A DNA stretch of 64,000 nucleotides from Syntrophales bacterium (lineage in GTDB: Bacteria > Desulfobacterota > Syntrophia > Syntrophales > UBA2210): the NCBI GenBank assembly GCA_963662405.2, contig CAXXKT010000001.1, positions 2,016,001 through 2,080,000 on the forward strand, in the 5' to 3' direction. Of this stretch, positions 27,926-49,311 are shown piece by piece. The notes under the pieces were generated by a model. That model was not told the origin of the DNA, did no database searches, and saw nothing but the letters and a program-made list of their open reading frames with translations. Position numbers and translations under genes: made by a program. Numbering within the stretch: the stretch's first letter is position 1; each line of letters starts with the position of its first letter.

Positions 27926-29514
27926 GCGTGTCCAGACAAGGACGCATAATCCAGTCGGTGAAAGTCCGACCGAGGCTAAAAGACTCAGGGCCTCGTAGCT
28001 TGGAAGGTGCCGTGGCGCGAAAGCAAGACGGTAAAGCCCTTCGACAACATTCTTTGAAAGGAGGATGCGCAACGTACCAGGTTGTAACGTGCAGTGAACG
28101 TAGACGTAGCCTCGTTACACGCATTCCGGTGGCCGAGATGGTCGATGACGTGCGAAGGCAGCAAGAGATGGCGGTGATGAGTCGTATACGCTATTTCTCA
28201 CCGGCGGGGTATCAGCGGCGACATGGTATGAAGGATTATGCGGAAACTGGAGAAGCCTTCGACGCCCGTCGGAGAAACCTCGACGAGGAGTTCCGGCCTA
28301 TAACCTTGAGTGGGAAGTGGCGGGAAAGGCGTCAGGGTGGCGGATCGGGTCGTAGTACTTTTGATCTGTGTGCAGCAAAACGCACAGGGAGGGAAGGCCC
28401 CGGACCGGTAGACATTCCGTTTCGGCAAAGCGAGGCACGGGTGAGATGACAAAGACGCCCATCAGTGTGCAGGAGCTGCGCCGGCGGATTTATCGAAAGG
28501 CGAAGTCTGAGAAAGATCATCGCTTCTGGGGGATCTTCGTGCATGTGACGAAGATCGAAGTGCTTGCAGAGGCATACCGGCTGGCAAAGAGGAATGGCGG
28601 CGCTCCGGGTATCGACGGACAAAGCTTCGAAGACATCGATGCGGCGGGCGTGGAAACATTCCTCCAGACGATACGGAATGACCTCATTGCAGGCGACTAC
28701 AAGCCGCAAAGGAATCGTTTTGTGGAGATACCAAAGGGAAACGGCAAGACCCGCACGCTTCAGATACCGTGCATCAGGGATCGCGTGGTACAAGGTGCAC
28801 TGAAATGGGTGCTCGAAGCGATCTTCGAGGCGGATTTCTGCCCGAACTCCTATGGGTTTCGACCGAAACGATCGCCGCACCGTGCCCTTGCGGAAGTCCG
28901 GAGGAGCATTCTTCGGCGGATGAACATGGTGATTGATGTTGATCTATCCAAGTACTTCGACACGATCAGGCATGACGTTCTGTTGGAGAAAATAGCGCGG
29001 CGGGTCCAAGACCCGCAGGTGCTGCACCTTGTGAAGTTGATATTGAAAACAACGGGGAAAATCGGCGTTCCGCAAGGAGGGCCGTTCAGTCCCCTGGCTG
29101 CCAATATCTACCTGAGCGAGGTTGACTGGTACTTCGACGGCATACGGCGCAAGACGGCGGAAGGGGAGTTCGAGGCGGTAAACTATCATCGGTTTGCTGA
29201 TGATATCGTAATCACCGTAAGCGGCCACCATACCAAGCGAAGCTGGGCGCAAAGAGCCCTGCAACGACTCTGTGAACAGATCGAGCCCTTGGGCGTCAGT
29301 CTGAACATGGAGAAAACGAAGGTGGTAAACATGCTTGACGGCGGCGCCTTTGGATTCCTCGGGTTTGACCTCCGGCGGATATTGAACCGTGAAAGGAACC
29401 GGCATTACATTTCGGAATGTCCCAGAATAAGGTAGTGTAATTATGATTAAATGAGATTGTTTCTTGAATATTAGTATAGTATAACTCATCTCACATAAAA
29501 TAGGGGGGTGAGTT

Positions 29515-42042: not shown

Positions 42043-43782
42043 ATGAAAAAAAATTTATTGTTGAATCCTCAAAAGATGGATCAGGTGATGGCTGACAAGA
42101 AAACACAAGATCTGTTCAATCTTACGGTGGATTTTTTCGAACACAAAGGCAACTTTTCGATGCGCATCGACTCCAAGGCGAGACGTATGCCGACTGATTT
42201 CTATCAGTTTGTCAAAGAATCCGGCTTGTTTGCTACTTTACTAACTCCGGCTGGGTACGGTGATGCCGATGCCAGGTGGGATCACTACAGAATAACATCC
42301 GCCAGTGAGCTGATAGGTTTCTACGGACTTTATCAATATACGTTCCAGGTTTCGATACTTGGGGTAGGGCCGATATGGATCAGTAAGAAAGAGACGCAGA
42401 AAAAGGAGCTGGCACAGTTACTCAAGGAAGGCCATGTTTTTGCCTTTGGTATGTCCGAGCGCAACCATGGTGCCGACCTGTACAGTAACGAAGCCAACAT
42501 CACTCCCATTGGTGATGGCAGGTATATAGCAAATGGAGAAAAGTATTATATCGGCAACTCTTCTCGGGCACCGAAGATCAGTGTCATGGGAAAGAATGCA
42601 AAGACGGGAGAGTATGTATTCTGGGTTGTCGACTGTCGTGACAGACACCTCAAGTATTGCGGTGACATAGACGTTGTCGGTATGTTCCAGGGTCAGCTGG
42701 GCCAGTTTGCAATGATTGAGTATCCCATCACCGATGTGGACATTCTGGAGACCGGGGATGCCGCTTTCGCAATGGGTCTTTCCACGGTCAATATCGGGAA
42801 AACGCAGACAAGCATGAAGAATGCGGGTATTGCGACGCATATGCTCTATGAAGCGATTAATCACGCCCATAACCGTTACCTGTATGGCAAGAGAGTGACG
42901 GACATGCCGCATATCAAGAGAGGATTTCTGGAAGCCTGGAGCCGAATCGTGATGAGCAGGTTGTATAACTATCGTGCCGTCGATTATTTCCGTCAGGCGG
43001 ACAAGGAGACGGATCGTCGGTACTTATTGTTTAACCCAATCCAGAAAGCACGTTCAGGGGCGCAATGTGATCTGGCCGTTACCATCATGCACAACATCAT
43101 GGCTGCCAAGGCATATGAAACAGATACATTTGCCGAGACAGCCGTACGTCAAATCGGCAACTCTGTTCGCCTCGAAGGGACAGCTCATGTCAATCTGTCT
43201 CAGGCAGTCAAATTTATCAATAACTACTTCAATGACAATGTAGATTTGCCTGAAGTTCCAGACGGTAAGATGGTGAAGGATGATTCTTCGAGCATGTTTG
43301 ACCAGGGCTTCGGCAAGGTCAAAAACATCAAGTTTAATGATTACCGGAAGGCATTTAACGGGTGCACACTTCCTAATGTGAAAATATTTCTCGAGCAGGC
43401 TGAAGCGCTCAAGGAATTTAACAATTGCTCACCCATGACCAAGGATCAGGTTAAAAACTCTGATTTTATGCTGAGTATTGCTGAGATCTTTGCCGTTGTT
43501 GTCTACGGCCAGCTTGTGTTCGAAAAAGCCAAGTTGGAAAGTATCGAAGATATGGTTGTTGATCAACTCTTCAGCTATTTGGTCCGTGATATTAACAGTT
43601 CTGTTATGCGCCAGATCAATGAATACGCCGGCCACTTTCAGGCAGGCCAGAAAGAAGGTCTTGCGGCTATTATTAAAGATCCTCACATTGATTTTGTGCG
43701 TGAAGAGGCTATCCTGACCGATTATATCTTGGCACTCGATGGTGCTTATAGCAGTACGTATGGAGTCGTTATCAACGAGTGA
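42043..43782 (+). CDS. Acyl-CoA dehydrogenase family protein
   Basis: FAFGMSERNHGAD, ANGEKYYIGN, RLEGTAHVN. Confidence 0.85.
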   Translation: MKKNLLLNPQKMDQVMADKKTQDLFNLTVDFFEHKGNFSMRIDSKARRMPTDFYQFVKESGLFATLLTPAGYGDADARWDHYRITSASELIGFYGLYQYTFQVSILGVGPIWISKKETQKKELAQLLKEGHVFAFGMSERNHGADLYSNEANITPIGDGRYIANGEKYYIGNSSRAPKISVMGKNAKTGEYVFWVVDCRDRHLKYCGDIDVVGMFQGQLGQFAMIEYPITDVDILETGDAAFAMGLSTVNIGKTQTSMKNAGIATHMLYEAINHAHNRYLYGKRVTDMPHIKRGFLEAWSRIVMSRLYNYRAVDYFRQADKETDRRYLLFNPIQKARSGAQCDLAVTIMHNIMAAKAYETDTFAETAVRQIGNSVRLEGTAHVNLSQAVKFINNYFNDNVDLPEVPDGKMVKDDSSSMFDQGFGKVKNIKFNDYRKAFNGCTLPNVKIFLEQAEALKEFNNCSPMTKDQVKNSDFMLSIAEIFAVVVYGQLVFEKAKLESIEDMVVDQLFSYLVRDINSSVMRQINEYAGHFQAGQKEGLAAIIKDPHIDFVREEAILTDYILALDGAYSSTYGVVINE

Positions 43783-43909
43783 ACTGATTGACAAGATGTC
43801 TGTTCATCCAGCTGTTTTGTACAGAGAAAGCCACACGTGCTTTCACCGTATGGCTGAATGGACAATGATATCTACTTCAAACGCTGAGAGAGTCAACGTG
43901 AAAACACAT

Positions 43910-44143
43910 ACAGCAGCGGCGTTTCAGTGCGGTTTTGTGAACAAGGTAGTCGTGCCCGAACGGCTCGATGACGAGGCGTATGCAATAGCTAAGGAAAATT
44001 TCAATCACGCACTGTATGGTCTTTTAGAGCGTCAACTCGAACTGGAACGGGATGGCATGATCAAGGCCGGAAGAACGACGGATTCGAAAGAAGGGTTTGC
44101 TGCATTTCTGGAAAAACGGAAACCACACTTTGCAGCAAAATGA
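43910..44143 (+). pseudogene. Enoyl-CoA hydratase (crotonase) C-terminal relic
   Basis: AAAFQCGFVNKVV..ERLDDEA and TTDSKEGFAAFLEKRKPHF are crotonase C-terminal motifs; N-terminus absent. Confidence 0.75.
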
Positions 44144-44208: not shown

Positions 44209-45558
44209 GGTAGTGTAAAAGAAAGGTCGCAATTTGAGGTATTGTCAGAGGCCATCGATATCTCCTAAAAAGGTGTCAGCGAAGACACTTGGGAAAGGAG
44301 ACAGAGCGATGGCCCGGAAGTATGATACCGCGACGTAAAAGAAATTACTACTGCATTTCATGGGAGAATCGGATCCGTTATATGCGATGCTCCAGTGGTT
44401 GACACAGCGGATGATGGAAGTGGAATCGGAGATAAAAGTGGGAGCGGCCAAGGGGAAGCATACAGATGAGCGGACGACGCATTTTTCAGGGACCCGAGTT
44501 CGGCGGTTTGATACCCGGTTGGGGGCCTTGTATCTGTTGGTTCCGAAGCTTCGCCAGGGTGGGTATGTTCCCTTCTTTGTCACGGAGAAGAAGCGTTCCG
44601 AGCAGGCGCTGATCCAGGTGGTACAGGAGGCATTTATCAACGGTGTCTCTACCCGGAAGATGGAGCGTCTGGTCCAGTCCCTGGGGATTGAGGGGATATC
44701 AGCGAGTCAGGTATCGGTGATGGCGAAGGAACTGGACGACCAGGTTTCCTGGTTTCGATCCCGGCCCCTGGAGCGAGAATATCCCGTTATCTGGCTGGAC
44801 GCCCTATATGAGGATATCCGGTTCGACGGTCGAGTGACAAGCATGGCGGTTCTGGTTGTTGCCGGGATCACCGTTGAGGGACGTCGTGATATCCTGGCCT
44901 GTGAGCCCATGATGACCGAATCGGAAGAGACCTATCGAGCGCTCTTTGCCAATCTCAAGAGACGGGGAGTGGAGAAGGTCTGGCTGTGTGTTTCTGACGC
45001 TCACATCGGTTTAAAGAAGGCGGTTCGGAAGGCATTTCTCGGGTGCAGTTGGCAGCGATGCAAGGTTCATTTTATGCGGAACATTCTGGCTCACATTCCC
45101 CACAGAGAGAAAGACTCCTTTGCTGCGAGATTGAAGGCCATCTGGCTGCAGCCCACAAAGGAGACGGCCCTCCAGGTAGCCCGGATGGTGATCGATGAAT
45201 ATCGAGATCGTTTTCCGCAGGCCATTACGATCTTGGAAGAAGGTCTGGAGGATGCCCTGCAGTACCTGTCATATTCCTCATTCGATCATCGGAAGATCAG
45301 CTCCACCAACATTCTCGAACGTCTGAACCGGGAGATTCGGAGGCGGTCACGGGTTGTGGGGATCTTTCCCGGCATGGACTCTTATATCCGACTGATCACT
45401 TCGTATCTGATTGAGTACAGCGAAGACTGGTCGACAGGAAAATGTTACATCAAACCGTCACTCATCGAGGAGAAAAGAGAGTCGCTACAAAGGGTGGCGT
45501 AACAGGGAAATATCGATGACCTCATGAATTGAAATTGCGAACATTTATTGACGTGACC
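44209..45558 (+). mobile_element. IS256-family insertion sequence
   Basis: Imperfect IRs GGT...TCGCAATTT at both ends; flanks GAGCTTG / AAGCTTG (imperfect 7-bp duplication). Confidence 0.85.
44309..45502 (+). pseudogene. IS256-family transposase with an early in-frame stop
   Basis: GGAAAGGAG RBS, then ATG 44309 reads MARKYDTAT*; the frame continues to GVSTRK, WLDA, VSDAHIGL, WQRCKVHFMRN, STNILERLNREIRRR; a restart at 44360 is possible. Confidence 0.8.
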
Positions 45559-45802
45559 AAGCTTGAGCGGAAGTTATTCAATTGAATATAAAAGAAAAAT
45601 GGTATCTGCTGCAGAGGCCGCCGAGAAGCGGGACATATGGACGAGGAGTAATAAGATAACATAGAAAAAACATAGAGAGAAGCATCTGCGATAGATCACT
45701 CATTGTCTTTTCTGGAAAACTCAACTGCCGGGAAAGGCATCTTTTCTGACCGCCGGACAGGAAAATGTCCGCATTCCTGTCCGGCATTTATGAAATACCC
45801 CG

Positions 45803-45913
45803 CAGAATACCCCGTCCTGTGGACGGGGATGAATGCGGAGCAGGGGCAGGGGGGATGCAATCCCCCTCATTTAAGCTTTTCAGATGCCCCGCCCTGTGGG
45901 CGGGGTAATTCAC
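45803..45913 (+). mobile_element. IS200/IS605-like non-autonomous mini-element (two subterminal hairpins, no ORF)
   Basis: Left CAGAATA-CCCCGTCC-TGT-GGACGGGG-ATGAATGCG; right CAGATG-CCCCGCCC-TGT-GGGCGGGG-TAATTCAC; hairpin+TTCAC is the typical right-end form. Confidence 0.6.
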
Positions 45914-47793
45914 GTGTGCCCGGCATGGGCAGCAGCTTGGAGGTGAGAGTCCTCTACAGGTCCTGATGGTGGAAACTGTTAGCCGAGGGCAAGGGCGTCC
46001 ATCGCGAGGTGGGGTCTGAAGGAAGCCGGAGGCAAAATCCCGATCCGAGGAACACGAATCGCATATCAGGCTGTATCATTGGGGCGAGCTTACGTGAGAA
46101 GGCGAAGCCCGTAGCCATCAAACGGTGATGCAGTAAATGCGGCGGATGCGGGGTGAAGGCGGCTGTTCTTACCCGGGGAGGTCTGGGAACCTGTCGGAGA
46201 CGACAAGGGGTTTCGCAAGGGACTCTGAACGGTTTCCAGAAGTCAGCAGAGGCCGTATTAGGTGTGGCGCAAGCCGGGCTGAAGGGCCGAACGTGTGGTC
46301 GGTGGTGAGACTCAAGGATTCGTGGTCGTGGAGATGCGGCAACTTTCATTATTCGATGAAGGCCTTCTGTCATGTTTGAAGGGTGAAGCCCCGAGGAGAG
46401 ATGGGAGGAGGTATCAAGCGGCGGCGGCATTGGAGAGATCCGAACCCATCATGGTTGACCTGATGCAGGAGGTAGTGAACAGGGAGAACGTGATTCGCGC
46501 ATGGAAACGAGTCAGGGCGAACAAGGGGAGCCCCGGCATTGACGGGATGACCGTCGATGAACTGACGGATTACCTGCGGGAACACTGGCCGCGGATTCGG
46601 GAGGAGTTGTTGACAGGGGAGTATCGCCCCCAACTGGTGAAAGAAGTAGTGATTCCGAAGCCGGGAGGCGGGACCAGACGGCTTGGTATCCCCACGGTGA
46701 CGGATCGATTTATCCAGCAGGCAATTTTGCAGGTGCTCGATCCCCTGTATGATCCGACCTTTTCGGACTACAGTTATGGCTTTCGTCCTCGTCGCCGTGC
46801 TCATCAGGCGGTGAACCGAGCGAAGAGATGCATATCTGAAGGATACGAATGGGTGGTCGATATTGACCTGGAGAAGTTTTTTGACCGGGTGAACCATGAC
46901 ATCCTCATGGGGAGACTGGCCAAGAGGATCGGTGACAAGCGCATTCTCCGGGTTATTCGTCGGTATGTGCAGGCCGGGATCATGGTCAATGGGGCCGTAC
47001 AGGAAAGGTGGGAAGGGACGCCGCAGGGCGGACCCTTATCGCCGCTGCTGGGCAACATTCTTCTGGACGCACTGGACAAGGAGTTGGAACGGAGGGGTCA
47101 CCGATTCTGCCGGTATGCGGACGATGTGAACATCTATGTCAAGTCTCAGCGCGCCGGGAAGAGGGTGTTTGAATCCATTGAGGCATTTTTGCTCAAGCGG
47201 TTGAAGCTTCGGGTGAACCGGGACAAGAGTGCGGTAGCCCGATACCATGAGCGGGGATTCTTAGGATTCGGCTTTACCTCCGGGAAACTCCTCAAGATCA
47301 AGCTGACGGGCAAGGCCCTGAGGAACTTCCGGGACCGAGTCCGGGCGATCACGAGGCGATCTCGGCGCGTCTCCATCAACCGGATAATCGAGGAACTCCA
47401 GACGTATTTGAGAGGATGGATCGGGTATTTTCATCTGATCGAGACGTGGACGATTCTGCGGGATCTGGATAGTTGGATGCGCAGGAGGTTGCGGTGTTTC
47501 ATGGTCAAACAATGGGTAAACAACTGCCATACCCGTTATAAGAACCTGATCCATCTGGGAGTAGGGAAAGATCAGGCGCGTATCGCGGCAGGGTCAAGCA
47601 AAGGACCTTGGGCGTTGTCCAACATGAAACCGCTGAAGATTGCTTTGTCCAATCGGTTTTTTGCCGAACGGGGTTTTCTTGGACTCTGGGGTCAGGCTCA
47701 AACATTGGGCAAGACTACATGAACCGCCGTGTACGGACCCGTATGCCCGGTGGTGTGGGAGGGGAAGGCCGTGAGGCCTTCCCCTATCCCGAT
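45914..47793 (+). mobile_element. Intact class C (IIC) group II intron (1880 nt)
   Basis: 5' GTGTGCCCGGCATGGG; short domain V with CGC triad AACCGCCGTGTACGGACCCGTATGCCCGGTGGTG (~47722-47755); domain VI ends CCCCTATCCCGAT; inserted 8 nt after a DNA hairpin. Confidence 0.93.
46451..47722 (+). CDS. ltrA: Group II intron reverse transcriptase/maturase, class C type, no endonuclease domain
   Basis: NKGSPGIDG, IPKPGGGTRRLGIPTVTDR, SYGFRP, DLEKFFD, GTPQGGPLSPLL, RYADD, GWIGYF; start may be 46334. Confidence 0.95.
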   Translation: MVDLMQEVVNRENVIRAWKRVRANKGSPGIDGMTVDELTDYLREHWPRIREELLTGEYRPQLVKEVVIPKPGGGTRRLGIPTVTDRFIQQAILQVLDPLYDPTFSDYSYGFRPRRRAHQAVNRAKRCISEGYEWVVDIDLEKFFDRVNHDILMGRLAKRIGDKRILRVIRRYVQAGIMVNGAVQERWEGTPQGGPLSPLLGNILLDALDKELERRGHRFCRYADDVNIYVKSQRAGKRVFESIEAFLLKRLKLRVNRDKSAVARYHERGFLGFGFTSGKLLKIKLTGKALRNFRDRVRAITRRSRRVSINRIIEELQTYLRGWIGYFHLIETWTILRDLDSWMRRRLRCFMVKQWVNNCHTRYKNLIHLGVGKDQARIAAGSSKGPWALSNMKPLKIALSNRFFAERGFLGLWGQAQTLGKTT

Positions 47794-47835
47794 TTGGTAA
47801 TCATGGCAGATACCTCCGCAGAAAATGAGGTTACC

Positions 47836-47862
47836 GTGATTACCCCACCCGCAGGGCAAGAT
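47836..47862 (-). repeat. Degenerate inverted copy of the mini-element right end
   Basis: The minus strand reads ...GCCCTGCGGGTGGGGTAATCAC versus GCCCTGTGGGCGGGGTAATTCAC at 45891-45913. Confidence 0.6.
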
Positions 47863-47925
47863 AATCCAATTCTATTTTTCATAAAAGAAAAGAAATCTCC
47901 ATTTTTAGCCCCTATCCTTTCAATG

Positions 47926-47978
47926 ATGATCATATTTAATAGTCATTATAAGGTCATTATTTGGGAGTTCCCTTTTCC
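47926..47978 (+). promoter_or_regulatory. Conserved upstream motif, copy 2
   Basis: ATGATCATATTTAATAGTCATTATAAGGTCATTATTTGGGAGTTCC; similar distance to the CoA-transferase start as copy 1. Confidence 0.7.
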
Positions 47979-48105
47979 AAATCCATAGCATAGGCTGCAT
48001 TTCCATAGAGAGATGCGTCGTGTCTGAAGAGTGGTAAACAACATTTTTTTTAAACATGTAGTGGATATATGTTCGTTAACGGAAATTGTAAAAGAGGAGC
48101 ATGGT

Positions 48106-49311
48106 ATGGAGGCGCAACCCTTTAAGGGAATAAAGATTCTCGATTTATCGAATCATATTAGCGGATCATTTTGCACGAAGCTTTTTGCGGATTATGGGGC
48201 GGAGGTTATCAAGATCGAGAAGCCGGGCAGGGGAAGCCTGACACGTTGCATGCCGCCGTTTGTAGATGATGTGCCTGATGTGAATAAAAGTGTTCATTTT
48301 CTGTATCTGAATACGAACAAGAGAGGAATTACGCTCAATCTGAAATCAGATACCGGGAAGAAGATTTTTGCACAGCTGGTCCAGAGTGCTGACATCCTGG
48401 TAGAGAGTTTCGCTCCGCAAGTGTCGTCGGATCTTGGATTGGAGTTCGACGCGATAGAGAAGCTGAACCCCTCGTTGGTTATGGCCTCGATTTCGAATTT
48501 CGGGCAAACGGGGCCTTACCGGGATTTCAAGGCTTCCGATCTGGTTGAGTATGCCATGGGAGGGGCGATGTTCCAGACTGGTCTCCCCGACAGAGAACCT
48601 CTGACCAAGGGACCAAACTCTCTGCTTTTCGAGGTGGGGACGCAGGCGTGTTACGCCATACTCGGGGCTTATATGGGTGCGAGGCGAGATGGCATTGGTG
48701 ATTATATCGACATCTCGATCATGGAGACTCAACTTGCTGGAGCTGACCGAAGAAGTGCGAATCTGCTTACGTATCAGTACACTGGTGATGTGACCCGTCG
48801 GGTTGCCCCGCTTCAGGGCGTGACATCAAAAGCACCGGCAATTCTGAGTTGTAAGGACGGCCGTGTGTCTTTGGCGATAGGGCCGAAAGTTTTCCCCAAG
48901 TTTCTGACCTTGATGGGGAGACCTGATCTCGTTGATGATCCCGAGTGGGATCCAATCACCATGAAGGTGACTCCTGAGGTGATGAAGGTTTATAACGACT
49001 GCTTTGCGAAGAAAACAAAGATGGAATGGTCGGAAATGTTTCAGAAAGAGGGACTGATTTGTACTCCTTTGAGCACACCCGAGGACGTATGTAAGGATGA
49101 TCACTGGAGATCCAGGAGTCTTTTTGTTGATGTGACACATCCCTCGACAGGAACGGTCAAGTATCCCCGAGGGTTTATTCGTACGGAATCTGAGTGGTGG
49201 AAGGTAAGAAAGCCGGCTCCGTTGCTGGGGCAGCACAACGGTGATGTCTACGGTGGCTTGGGTTATACCGCCGATGAGATGGCTACTTTGGAGGCACAGG
49301 GGATAATATAG
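48106..49311 (+). CDS. Family III CoA-transferase, subunit A, copy 2
   Basis: Close paralog of 35895-37100; GAGGAG RBS. Confidence 0.92.
   Translation: MEAQPFKGIKILDLSNHISGSFCTKLFADYGAEVIKIEKPGRGSLTRCMPPFVDDVPDVNKSVHFLYLNTNKRGITLNLKSDTGKKIFAQLVQSADILVESFAPQVSSDLGLEFDAIEKLNPSLVMASISNFGQTGPYRDFKASDLVEYAMGGAMFQTGLPDREPLTKGPNSLLFEVGTQACYAILGAYMGARRDGIGDYIDISIMETQLAGADRRSANLLTYQYTGDVTRRVAPLQGVTSKAPAILSCKDGRVSLAIGPKVFPKFLTLMGRPDLVDDPEWDPITMKVTPEVMKVYNDCFAKKTKMEWSEMFQKEGLICTPLSTPEDVCKDDHWRSRSLFVDVTHPSTGTVKYPRGFIRTESEWWKVRKPAPLLGQHNGDVYGGLGYTADEMATLEAQGII

What the first reader, a model, noticed from the sequence alone, without database searches (positions are those of the whole stretch)
45803..47793. 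Class C group II intron docked exactly at an IS200/IS605-type right end, with a matching EBS1
Seen: the intron starts at 45914 immediately after CCCCGCCC-TGT-GGGCGGGG-TAATTCAC. That hairpin has no U-tract and has a sister hairpin ~75 bp upstream. The loop at the expected EBS1 position (GCTTAC-GTGA-GAAGGC, 46094-46097) is the exact complement of the last four exon bases TCAC. Established: IIC introns recognise a DNA hairpin plus a 4-nt IBS1 and typically use terminators or integron attC sites; IS200/IS605 right ends are a subterminal hairpin followed by a conserved tetranucleotide such as TCAC/TCAA. Inference: this intron lineage is specialised on HUH-transposon ends, using dispersed mini-elements as safe landing pads and inserting at the TnpA cleavage boundary. 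The EBS1 assignment is by eye, and I cannot check whether this targeting has been reported for this lineage.
Basis: partly seen in the sequence, partly recalled or inferred. Interest (0 to 1): 0.75.

Follow-up and report, generated by a model that had tools for sequence, protein, structure and literature searches.

The report
Hairpin-seeking intron docked on IS200 ends
A mobile self-splicing (class C group II) intron sits exactly at the right-hand tip of a miniature IS200-type transposon, and its relatives elsewhere sit at the same spot behind real IS200 transposase genes, so this intron lineage appears to use transposon ends as its landing sites.

Summary
An intact class C group II intron occupies 45914-47793, directly after a GC hairpin plus TAATTCAC. 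The loop GTGA (46094-46097) is EBS1; this position covaries with the last exon bases across 92 relatives.

The upstream 122 bases are a transposase-less mini-IS200 with left and right hairpins. The same genome holds a full IS200 (Y1 transposase) whose right end is hairpin+AGCTTCAC.

All four near-identical intron copies follow such right ends. All four have their sense strand on the lagging-strand template.

In an intron-protein tree, a clade of 25 shows T-N-A-Y exon ends in 24. Of 22 related loci that can be assessed, 9 have an IS200 tnpA directly upstream.

The last exon base pairs with the base beside the hairpin foot in 23 of 25 junctions. That is the TnpA guide/cleavage rule, so the intron sits at the cleavage boundary.

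Retrohoming, TnpA cleavage and "safe landing pad" benefit are inferred, not shown.

Eight literature searches found no report. Earlier agents of this scan noted the same phenomenon on other genomes.

Verdict: a new variant of hairpin-targeting IIC introns, moderately high interest.

The parts
45788..45791 (+). TTAT, the left target/cleavage tetranucleotide outside the mini-element
   Evidence: Shared left boundary of three mini-element copies. It is complementary in parallel order to the guide AATA. In 16 left ends of this IS family, the tetranucleotide 19 nt upstream of the foot matches the guide at 15, 13, 14 and 14 of 16 positions. Here the spacing is 18 nt, not 19.
45792..45913 (+). 122-base transposase-less mini-IS200 (left end plus right end, internal deletion)
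   Evidence: 106 bases are identical upstream of intron copy C. An 83%-identical intron-free copy lies at C1:~903876-903780(-). Both flanks align to the LE and RE of the full IS200 at C1:266187-266795.
45806..45828 (+). Left-end guide AATA (45806-45809) and left hairpin CCCCGTCC-TGT-GGACGGGG (45810-45828), followed by ATGAATGC
   Evidence: Same layout as the LE of the full IS200 (..GCAGAATA-hairpin-ATGAATGC). Fold -9.7 kcal/mol, z -5.1.
45850..45866 (+). Internal hairpin GGGGGAT-GCA-ATCCCCC of the mini-element
   Evidence: A comparable G5/C5 stretch lies in the LE region of the full IS200. Function not examined.
45883..45905 (+). Right-end guide GATG (45883-45886) and right hairpin CCCCGCCC-TGT-GGGCGGGG (45887-45905)
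   Evidence: GATG-hairpin is the RE layout of this IS family in 14 of 17 intron-free right ends.
45906..45913 (+). 8-base tail TAATTCAC. Its last four bases, TCAC (45910-45913), are both the inferred TnpA right cleavage site and the intron's IBS1.
   Evidence: Homology among mini-element copies ends here. 17 of 17 intron-free right ends of the family end ..TC(A/T/G)C and then diverge. The last base pairs with the guide base beside the foot in 23 of 25 junctions.
45914..47793 (+). Class C (IIC) group II intron, 1880 bases, apparently intact
   Evidence: Rfam hits. Four copies at 99.95-100% identity. 5' GTGTG, 3' ..GAT.
46092..46099 (+). EBS1 loop ACGTGAGA; EBS1 = GTGA at 46094-46097
   Evidence: Aligned to the terminal loop of RF02001, whose consensus is GCaaaacA. 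Covaries with the exon end across relatives.
46087..46087 (+). Candidate EBS3 (A in the internal loop 5' of the EBS1 stem)
   Evidence: Inferred from its position in the RF02001 alignment, and from T as the first 3'-exon base in 4 of 4 own copies and in nearly all clade loci. The assignment rests on recalled IIB/IIC anatomy and was not tested.
46451..47722 (+). Intron-encoded reverse transcriptase/maturase. The frame is open from 46295; the likely start is ATG 46451, giving 423 aa.
   Evidence: RVT_1 2.9e-40 and GIIM 5.2e-18, no endonuclease domain found. The best solved relative is GsI-IIC RT at 4.4e-140, aligned from query residue 43.
47722..47793 (+). Domains V and VI
   Evidence: RF00029, 38.8 bits (gathering 40), E 1.5e-5. 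CGC stands where the consensus has AGC.
47794..47794 (+). T, first base of the 3' exon (IBS3)
   Evidence: T in all 4 own copies and in nearly all clade loci. It is also T after 17 of 17 intron-free right ends of the IS family.

Best explanation
What it is. The window holds an active-looking class C group II intron. It has inserted at the junction between the right end of a miniature IS200-family transposon and the flanking DNA.

How the site is recognised. The lineage appears to recognise three things:
- the transposon's right-end hairpin, in the way IIC introns recognise terminator hairpins;
- the four bases 5-8 nt past the hairpin foot (TCAC), read by EBS1 (GUGA);
- the next base (T), read by EBS3.
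Those four bases are also the tetranucleotide after which the IS200 transposase TnpA is expected to cut. The intron therefore lands exactly at the transposon's tip and leaves the transposon's own recognition elements intact.

Consequences. Every new IS200 copy or mini-derivative offers a fresh, gene-free target. Both elements need the same single-stranded, hairpin-folded lagging-strand template.

Shown: the anatomy, the copies, the IS200 identity of the exons, the clade-wide pattern and the register.

Inferred: retrohoming by reverse splicing into ssDNA at the fork, TnpA cleavage at TCAC|, and any benefit to either element.
For: Class C:
- The IEP has RVT_1 and GIIM with no En domain.
- Its best PDB hit is GsI-IIC RT (4.4e-140), then the E. 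rectale IIC RT. LtrA and a IIB RT score far lower.
- CGC triad in domain V.

Four copies:
- Each follows a hairpin plus 8 nt ending TCAC (A, B) or TCTC (C, D).

IS200 identity:
- A full element lies at C1:266187-266795 with the same hairpin at both ends and a Y1 TnpA.
- Copies B and C sit on a two-hairpin mini-element.
- Copies A and D sit on single hairpins with an LE-type 5' flank and an RE tail.

Boundary:
- B, C and an intron-free third copy share sequence only up to ..CAC.
- 17 of 17 intron-free right ends from a 301-genome class sample end ..TC(A/T/G)C and then diverge.

Register:
- The base beside the hairpin's 5' foot pairs with the last exon base in 23 of 25 junctions (0 of 20000 shuffles). 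Shifted registers give 1, 12, 7 and 9.
- This matches the IS608 guide/cleavage rule read in PMC3201880.
- Left ends obey the same rule at 19 nt.

Lineage:
- A clade of 25 IEPs has 100% local support in FastTree. 24 of the 25 have T-N-A-Y exon ends.
- tnpA lies directly upstream on the same strand, 34-175 nt from the intron, in 9 of 22 assessable loci. Outside the clade it occurs in 3 of 63 rows, all one element.
- L004 shows a complete IS200 (LE, tnpA, RE) abutting the intron.
- EBS1 ATGA goes with exon end ..T in 5 of 5 loci.

Orientation:
- The origin is near 0.98 Mb by GC skew and dnaA. All 4 introns have their sense strand on the lagging-strand template.
- The one intact IS200, with a perfect but empty site, faces the other way.

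Metagenome contigs:
- A contig carries a ~96.5% identical intron behind a different hairpin plus AGATTCAC.
Against: - No experiment: neither intron mobility nor TnpA cleavage at TCAC| was observed.
- 13 of 22 assessable clade loci show no tnpA upstream. Their hairpins are called IS200-derived only by likeness; two have a second similar hairpin.
- Several tails are T-rich (TTCTTTAC, AGTTTTCAT) and could also act as terminators.
- Copies C and D carry TCTC, a U-U mismatch with GUGA at -2.
- L086 and L103 have no hairpin at all, and L094 ends TGGC.
- In the right-end register test, only position 4 covaries clearly. Positions 1-3 give 11, 9 and 11 of 25.
- Three hairpin feet were set by hand.
- The tree is a FastTree with several long branches, and the loci are not phylogenetically independent.
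- The base after the right end is T in 17 of 17 intron-free copies. The true IS end could therefore lie one base further on, which would put the intron one base inside.
- No orthologous empty site was found in 30 relatives.
Confidence: 0.8

Rival explanations
1. Ordinary IIC behaviour with no specialisation. The intron targets any stable hairpin followed by a short IBS1. IS200 right-end hairpins, which may serve as the tnpA terminator, are merely among the commonest such hairpins.
For: - IIC introns are described as lying after terminators 'or other inverted repeats' (abstract of PMC1702495 in the listing).
- The hairpin-to-site distance of 8-9 nt is the same as in T-tract relatives.
- Some tails are T-rich.
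- 13 of 22 assessable clade loci lack tnpA.
Against: - EBS1 in the clade is GUGA, AUGA or GUGU rather than A-rich. 24 of 25 exon ends are T-N-A-Y, the IS200 cleavage-site type. T-tract exons fall in sister clades.
- tnpA is upstream in 9 of 22 clade loci against one element outside it.
- The site coincides with the IS boundary and with the guide-pairing register.
- No terminator-like site is scored at the window's hairpin.
Confidence: 0.12
2. Composite element. The mini-IS200 and the intron move together as one unit, in the manner of an IStron, mobilised by TnpA.
For: Copies B and C share both the 106-base mini-element and the intron. IStrons, which fuse a group I intron with IS200/IS605, are a precedent (abstract of PMC4227781 in the listing).
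Against: - Copies A and D carry the same intron behind a different, single-hairpin element.
- Intron-free mini-elements exist.
- The intron's 3' end has no right-end-like hairpin plus TCAC.
- Relatives sit behind many different IS200 subfamilies.
Confidence: 0.03
3. The hairpins are REP-like or other host repeats unrelated to IS200 transposition, and the tnpA neighbours are coincidence.
For: The genome has 13 Y1_Tnp matches, some weak and in long frames, which might be REP-associated. Extended palindromes GTGAAGCT-hairpin-AGCTTCAC exist.
Against: The very same hairpin flanks a canonical 146-aa IS200 TnpA on both sides. Left and right ends follow the guide/cleavage architecture of IS608. Full-length 82%-identical copies occur in two other genomes.
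Confidence: 0.03

Closest known systems
Terminator-targeting class C (IIC) group II introns (B.h.I1, GsI-IIC, O.i.I1, E. rectale IIC; names partly recalled)
   Same: The IEP family is the same: GsI-IIC RT is the best solved relative at 4.4e-140. There is no En domain, EBS1 is short, and a hairpin lies 8-9 nt upstream of the site. The sense strand is on the lagging-strand template; that this bias is usual for such introns is recalled.
   Different: The hairpin is a transposase-binding IS200 right end without a T-tract. EBS1 is GUGA rather than A-rich. The site coincides with a transposon boundary.
IIC-attC introns of integrons (mentioned in PMC7923331, passages read)
   Same: A IIC sub-lineage specialised on a hairpin-forming recombination site of another mobile system that acts as folded ssDNA.
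   Different: The target is an IS200 end (HUH/Y1 transposase), not an attC site (tyrosine recombinase). The flanking sequence logic also differs.
IStrons (group I intron fused to IS200/IS605; PMC4227781, abstract only)
   Same: A self-splicing intron physically coupled to an IS200/IS605 element.
   Different: IStrons are one chimeric unit moved by the transposase, and their intron is group I. Here two autonomous elements are involved, and the intron arrives by its own route.
T. elongatus F4 introns inserted in ISEL1, an IS200-family element (PMC2882425, passage read)
   Same: Group II introns that repeatedly occupy one site of an IS200-family element.
   Different: Those are a different intron class, inserted at a conserved site in the element. 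They are not hairpin-guided and not at its terminal cleavage junction.
IS608 of the IS200/IS605 family (PMC3201880, passages read)
   Same: Subterminal hairpins on one strand. The left cleavage tetranucleotide lies 19 nt 5' of the left foot, and the right one lies a few bases 3' of the right foot. Both are read by a 4-nt guide 5' of the foot.
   Different: The elements here are IS200-type (tnpA only) or have no gene at all. The right site is 8-9 nt from the foot and reads TCAC rather than TCAA.

Membership tests
Class C (IIC) group II intron | IEP of the class C lineage, with RT and maturase domains but no endonuclease domain | tested here: met
   RVT_1 and GIIM only. The best PDB matches are IIC RTs (GsI-IIC 4.4e-140; 7uim 1.7e-105), against LtrA at 8.3e-41.
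Class C (IIC) group II intron | Group II ribozyme domains with 5' GUGYG and domain V/VI at the 3' end | tested here: met
   RF02001 at 144.8 bits and RF01998 at 46.6 bits. RF00029 scores 38.8 bits, just below its gathering score of 40. 5' GTGTG.
Class C (IIC) group II intron | Domain V catalytic triad CGC instead of AGC (feature recalled) | tested here: met
   In the RF00029 alignment, CGC stands opposite the consensus AGC.
Class C (IIC) group II intron | Target is a DNA hairpin followed by a short IBS1 and a one-base IBS3; no EBS2 | tested here: inconclusive
   Hairpin plus a 4-nt IBS1/EBS1 is supported by covariation. T at +1 holds in 4 of 4 copies. Absence of EBS2 was not examined.
Class C (IIC) group II intron | Self-splicing and retromobility | not testable with these tools
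   Only indirect evidence: four copies at 99.95-100% identity with intact ORFs.
IS200/IS605 family (the upstream mini-element and its full-length relative) | Y1 (HUH) transposase TnpA | tested here: met
   The full-length relative in the same genome matches PF01797 at 8.7e-39. The window's own 122-base element has no gene and is therefore non-autonomous.
IS200/IS605 family (the upstream mini-element and its full-length relative) | Subterminal hairpins at both ends on the same strand, with no terminal inverted repeats | tested here: met
IS200/IS605 family (the upstream mini-element and its full-length relative) | Cleavage tetranucleotides read by 4-nt guides 5' of each hairpin foot; the left one is outside the element and about 19 nt upstream | tested here: met
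   Left ends: complementarity at 15, 13, 14 and 14 of 16 positions at 19 nt, much lower in shifted registers. Right ends: position 4 pairs in 23 of 25. The rule was read in PMC3201880. In the window copy the left spacing is 18 nt.
IS200/IS605 family (the upstream mini-element and its full-length relative) | Insertion without target duplication, 3' of the target tetranucleotide | tested here: inconclusive
   Flanks of copies B, C and the third copy share TTTAT on the left and show no repeat on the right. No empty site was recovered.
IS200/IS605 family (the upstream mini-element and its full-length relative) | Single-strand 'peel and paste' transposition by TnpA | not testable with these tools
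   No assay was possible.

The most novel reading that the evidence does not exclude
A whole lineage of IIC introns is a parasite of a parasite. Its EBS1 (GUGA, AUGA, GUGU) and EBS3 have co-diversified with the TnpA cleavage tetranucleotide (TCAC, TCAT, TTAC) and with the +1 T of different IS200 subfamilies. As a result, the transposase's own guide-encoded cut site doubles as the intron's homing site.

The two elements stay independently mobile. When the IS excises, it leaves hairpin-less 'orphan' introns fused to the left target. L086 ends ..TTAT| and L103 ends ..TTAG|, the same tetranucleotides that flank IS200 left ends.
Probability: 0.4. Interest if true: 0.75.

Novelty: new variant of a known kind. 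Interest (0 to 1): 0.62.

Why it matters
Class C introns are described as following terminators, with no bias in their neighbours (PMC7306698, passages read). A sub-lineage tied to the cut site of IS200 transposons would be a second case, after attC sites, of these introns adopting another mobile element's single-stranded hairpin.

- It links two elements that both depend on lagging-strand ssDNA.
- It gives a natural test bed for how IIC ribonucleoproteins read DNA hairpins.
- It predicts where such introns will spread: the IS family was found in 85 of 301 genomes sampled in this class.
- It offers a compact, sequence-defined hairpin target for engineering.

Tried and rejected
- Empty site in relatives: the 3' flank (47794-48500) found no orthologue in 30 relatives, only a paralogue in the own genome and a 40-base match. 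No pre-insertion allele was obtained.
- The intron's 5' 427 bases in the same 30 relatives gave only other IIC lineages at 72-78% identity. One example (G014) lies behind a tRNA terminator ending TTTTTTTAT and has a different EBS1 stem. None belongs to this clade.
- TnpB: no PF07282 match in the genome, so the omega-RNA idea does not apply here.
- Two-register EBS1: the loop also contains GAGA, complementary to the TCTC of copies C and D. But copies A/B and C/D have identical loops and differ only by one C in domain VI. TCTC also occurs in 2 of 17 intron-free right ends. It is therefore more simply a natural variant tolerated with one mismatch.
The runs laid were DNA contigs, so nothing can be said on expression or splicing.
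- Script slips: one search was an unfinished script. One search used a wrong reading frame and was redone. One search failed on row names and was redone.
- Literature: eight searches found no report of IIC introns at IS200 ends. Robart et al. 2007 and Mohr et al. 2018 are not in the library and could not be read.
Full report
**The object.** Positions 45914-47793 are a group II intron.
- Rfam places RF02001 at 45998-46167 (144.8 bits) and RF01998 at 46204-46287.
- With relaxed thresholds it places domain V/VI (RF00029) at 47722-47793 with 38.8 bits, just under the gathering score of 40.
- The intron starts GTGTG and ends GAT.
- Its reading frame (open from 46295; likely start ATG 46451) carries RVT_1 and the group II maturase domain, and no endonuclease domain.
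- The closest solved proteins are group IIC reverse transcriptases: GsI-IIC at 4.4e-140, then the E. rectale enzyme at 1.7e-105. LtrA and a IIB enzyme score 8.3e-41 and 2.2e-34.
- Domain V has CGC where the consensus has AGC.

I file it as class C.

- The exon ends CCCCGCCC-TGT-GGGCGGGG-TAATTCAC.
- The hairpin is stable as ssDNA (-11.1 kcal/mol, z -4.5).
- A sister hairpin lies 77 bases upstream.
- No terminator-like site is scored in 45450-46050.

**EBS1.** I took 159 loci encoding relatives of the intron protein, from species genomes and metagenomes. I aligned the 5' regions of those with recognisable motifs. The terminal loop that Rfam's model shows as GCaaaacA is ACGTGAGA here.

A fixed positional rule (the four bases ending two before the loop's 3' end) pairs with the last four exon bases at 298 of 368 positions in 92 introns.
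- 44 introns show four pairs and 32 show three.
- The shuffled mean is 180, and 0 of 5000 shuffles reach the observed value.
- Examples: AACG/CGTT, ATTG/CAAT, AGAT/ATCT, CACT/AGTG, and AAAA/TTTT in terminator-type relatives.
- Some of the 16 weak cases are register errors of my simple rule.

GTGA at 46094-46097 is therefore EBS1, complementary to TCAC.

**Copies in the genome.** The assembly holds four copies. A and B are identical. C and D share one extra C in domain VI.

| Copy | 5' exon end | First 3'-exon base |
|---|---|---|
| A | CCCCGCGGC-TT-GCCGCGGGG AGTTTCAC | T |
| B (window) | CCCCGCCC-TGT-GGGCGGGG TAATTCAC | T |
| C | same hairpin as B, TAATTCTC | T |
| D | CCCCGCGGC-AA-GCCACGGGG AGCTTCTC | T |

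**What the hairpins are.** A scan of the genome for this hairpin type, together with a Y1 transposase search (13 matches), found a complete IS200-type element at C1:266187-266795. Its layout is:
- TTAT;
- 19 bases ending ..TTTGCAGAATA;
- hairpin CCCCGCGGCTTGCCGCGGGG, followed by ATGAATGC..;
- a 146-aa TnpA (PF01797, 8.7e-39) whose gene ends ..CTGCGCTAA;
- AGATG, the same hairpin, AGCTTCAC, then unrelated DNA.

The window's 45792-45913 aligns to both ends of such an element and lacks the middle. It is a 122-base non-autonomous derivative.
- Copy C sits on a near-identical mini-element: 106 identical bases, a 12-base difference at the left, and A/T at -2.
- A third, 83%-identical, intron-free copy lies at C1:~903876-903780(-).
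- Copies A and D sit on single hairpins whose 5' flank is left-end-like (TTAC, 19-20 bases..TTTGCAG..) and whose tail is right-end-like. I read these as products of deletion between the two identical hairpins. The same solo form occurs intron-free in three other genomes (L211, L213, L214) and in a metagenome contig.

**Is the intron exactly at the transposon's end?** Three lines say so.

1. Copies B, C and the intron-free copy share sequence up to ..CAC and nothing beyond, apart from a T.
2. I searched the full IS200 against 301 genomes of the same class; 85 had matches. In the 30 loci returned I found 17 intron-free right ends. They end TCAC (14), TCTC (2) or TCGC (1), eight bases after the hairpin, and then continue with unrelated sequence.
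3. For IS608, the published rule is that cleavage tetranucleotides are read by the four bases 5' of each hairpin foot. The left site lies 19 nt upstream and outside the element; the right site lies a few bases downstream and inside it (PMC3201880, passages).
   - Left ends of this family obey the rule. In 16 of them the tetranucleotide 19 nt upstream is complementary to the guide at 15, 13, 14 and 14 positions, with clear covariation (TTAT/AATA, TTAG/AATC, TTAA/AATT) and low values in shifted registers.
   - At intron-occupied right ends, the base beside the foot pairs with the last exon base in 23 of 25 junctions: G-C 17, A-T 6. None of 20000 shuffles reaches this, and shifted registers give 1, 12, 7 and 9.
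   - The intron has no known reason to care about the base 5' of the hairpin. This covariation is therefore the transposon's own and fixes the register.

Caveats on this point:
- Positions 1-3 of the right-end comparison are weak (11, 9 and 11 of 25).
- Three hairpin feet were set by hand.
- The base after the right end is T in 17 of 17 intron-free copies. This is either a target preference of the IS or a sign that the true end lies one base further on.

**The lineage.** A FastTree of 88 intron proteins with mapped junctions gives a clade of 25 rows with 100% local support.
- 24 of the 25 have exons ending T-N-A-Y.
- T-tract exons fall in sister clades.
- With three further clade-like loci whose ORFs were too short for the tree (L096, L103, L105), 27 external junctions are available.
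- Across the non-redundant clade junctions plus own copies A, B and D, a hairpin ends 8 (18 cases) or 9 (7 cases) bases before the junction in 25.
- A profile built from the genome's own Y1 proteins finds tnpA directly upstream on the same strand, ending 34-175 bases before the intron, in 9 loci: L002, L004, L080, L083, L084, L091, L096, L099 and L102.
- Five loci have under 200 bases of upstream sequence and cannot be judged, so the count is 9 of 22.
- Outside the clade, tnpA is upstream in 3 of 63 rows, all one element.
- L004 shows the whole arrangement: TTAG, 19 bases, guide AATC, left hairpin, tnpA, right hairpin, AGCATCAC, intron.
- Within the clade, EBS1 ATGA goes with an exon ending in T in 5 of 5 loci. 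GTGA/GTGT goes mostly with C.
- 3' exons begin with T and are otherwise unrelated.
- Contigs of an unrelated metagenome carry a ~96.5% identical intron behind yet another hairpin plus AGATTCAC.

**Orientation.** Cumulative GC skew has its minimum at about 0.98 Mb, and dnaA lies at 992.5 kb.
- Copy A (minus strand, 0.27 Mb) and copies B, C and D (plus strand, 2.06-2.55 Mb) all have their sense strand on the lagging-strand template.
- That this is the orientation expected for endonuclease-less introns and for active IS200/IS605 ends is recalled, not tested.
- The intact IS200 at 0.27 Mb has a perfect, unoccupied site (AGCTTCAC|T) but faces the other way.
- The two extended palindromes bury TTCAC in the stem.
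- Four of four is suggestive only.

**Mechanism.** I think the ribonucleoprotein binds the right-end hairpin when it folds in single-stranded DNA at the fork. It pairs EBS1 with TCAC and EBS3 with the following T, then reverse-splices at the junction and is copied from a nascent lagging strand. All of this is inferred by analogy with IIC introns.

Because TnpA's recognition elements (guide, hairpin, TCAC) all lie 5' of the site, the transposon should stay mobile. Its excision would leave the intron fused to the left target. Two clade members without any hairpin end ..TTTTAT| (L086) and ..TTTTAG| (L103), which fits that prediction. They may equally be ectopic insertions.

**Comparison and novelty.** This works like a terminator-targeting IIC intron and is a member of class C. 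What differs is the target. The nearest parallel is the attC-specialised IIC lineage.

Published surveys state that class C introns show no biased flanking features (PMC7306698, passages). A different intron class occupies a site in an IS200-family element in T. elongatus (PMC2882425, passage). Eight searches of the open library found no report of IIC introns at IS200 ends. Key subscription papers could not be read.

Earlier agents of this scan noted the same phenomenon on other genomes. I read those notes after forming my view, and they agree with it. I did not count them as evidence.

**Verdict.** This is a new variant of a known kind, with interest about 0.6.

Noticed in passing
window 44360-45502 (+): An IS256/Mutator-family transposase (PF00872, 8.6e-105) lies just upstream of the mini-IS200. 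It is inserted after a truncated enoyl-CoA hydratase fragment (43739-44143). Three kinds of mobile element are thus stacked within 3.5 kb.
   Followed up: partly
window 27952-29435 (+): A second group II intron signal: RF02003 at 27952-28092 (109.9 bits), followed by a 355-aa frame with RVT_1 only and no maturase domain. It is probably a truncated intron of another class.
   Followed up: partly
17 intron-free IS200 right ends in L187-L216: The base after the inferred right cleavage site is T in 17 of 17 copies, although the sequence beyond is unrelated. Either this IS family prefers TTAN|T targets or its end lies one base further on. T is also the intron's IBS3.
   Followed up: partly
G000:C1:2554715 onward (3' exon of copy D): The 3' exon of copy D begins TTCACAATCAC, so it repeats the TTCAC motif right after an exon that ends TTCTC. 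This may be chance or a trace of an unusual insertion event.
   Followed up: no
window 46092-46099: The EBS1 loop ACGTGAGA differs from the clade's usual ACGTGACA by one base. The change creates GAGA, complementary to the TCTC tails of copies C and D and of 2 of 17 intron-free right ends.
   Followed up: partly
G000:C2:149233-149252 and G000:C1:2490931-2490950: Extended palindromes of the form GTGAAGCT-hairpin-AGCTTCAC read as a right end on both strands. Both are unoccupied, and TTCAC would be paired in the longer stem.
   Followed up: no
G000:C1:2297519-2297939 (-): A different, partial IS200-type tnpA with its own hairpin (CCCCGGC-TTT-GCCGGGG) lies 1.5 kb downstream of intron copy C on the opposite strand. 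Another Y1 match lies just beyond the window's end (C1:2080325-2080648).
   Followed up: no
L023, L133, L143: A more distant IIC lineage (EAS1 AAAT in my alignment; EBS1 AAAT, exon ..GGGTGGTTGTGATTT|) also lies about 175 bases after an IS200 tnpA. Use of IS200 ends may therefore have arisen more than once.
   Followed up: no
L165-L168 (relatives G018, G028, G005, G012): Relatives of the host carry another IIC lineage with EBS1 ACGT and exons ending ..CGT after imperfect hairpins of the form CAGC..GCTG.
   Followed up: no
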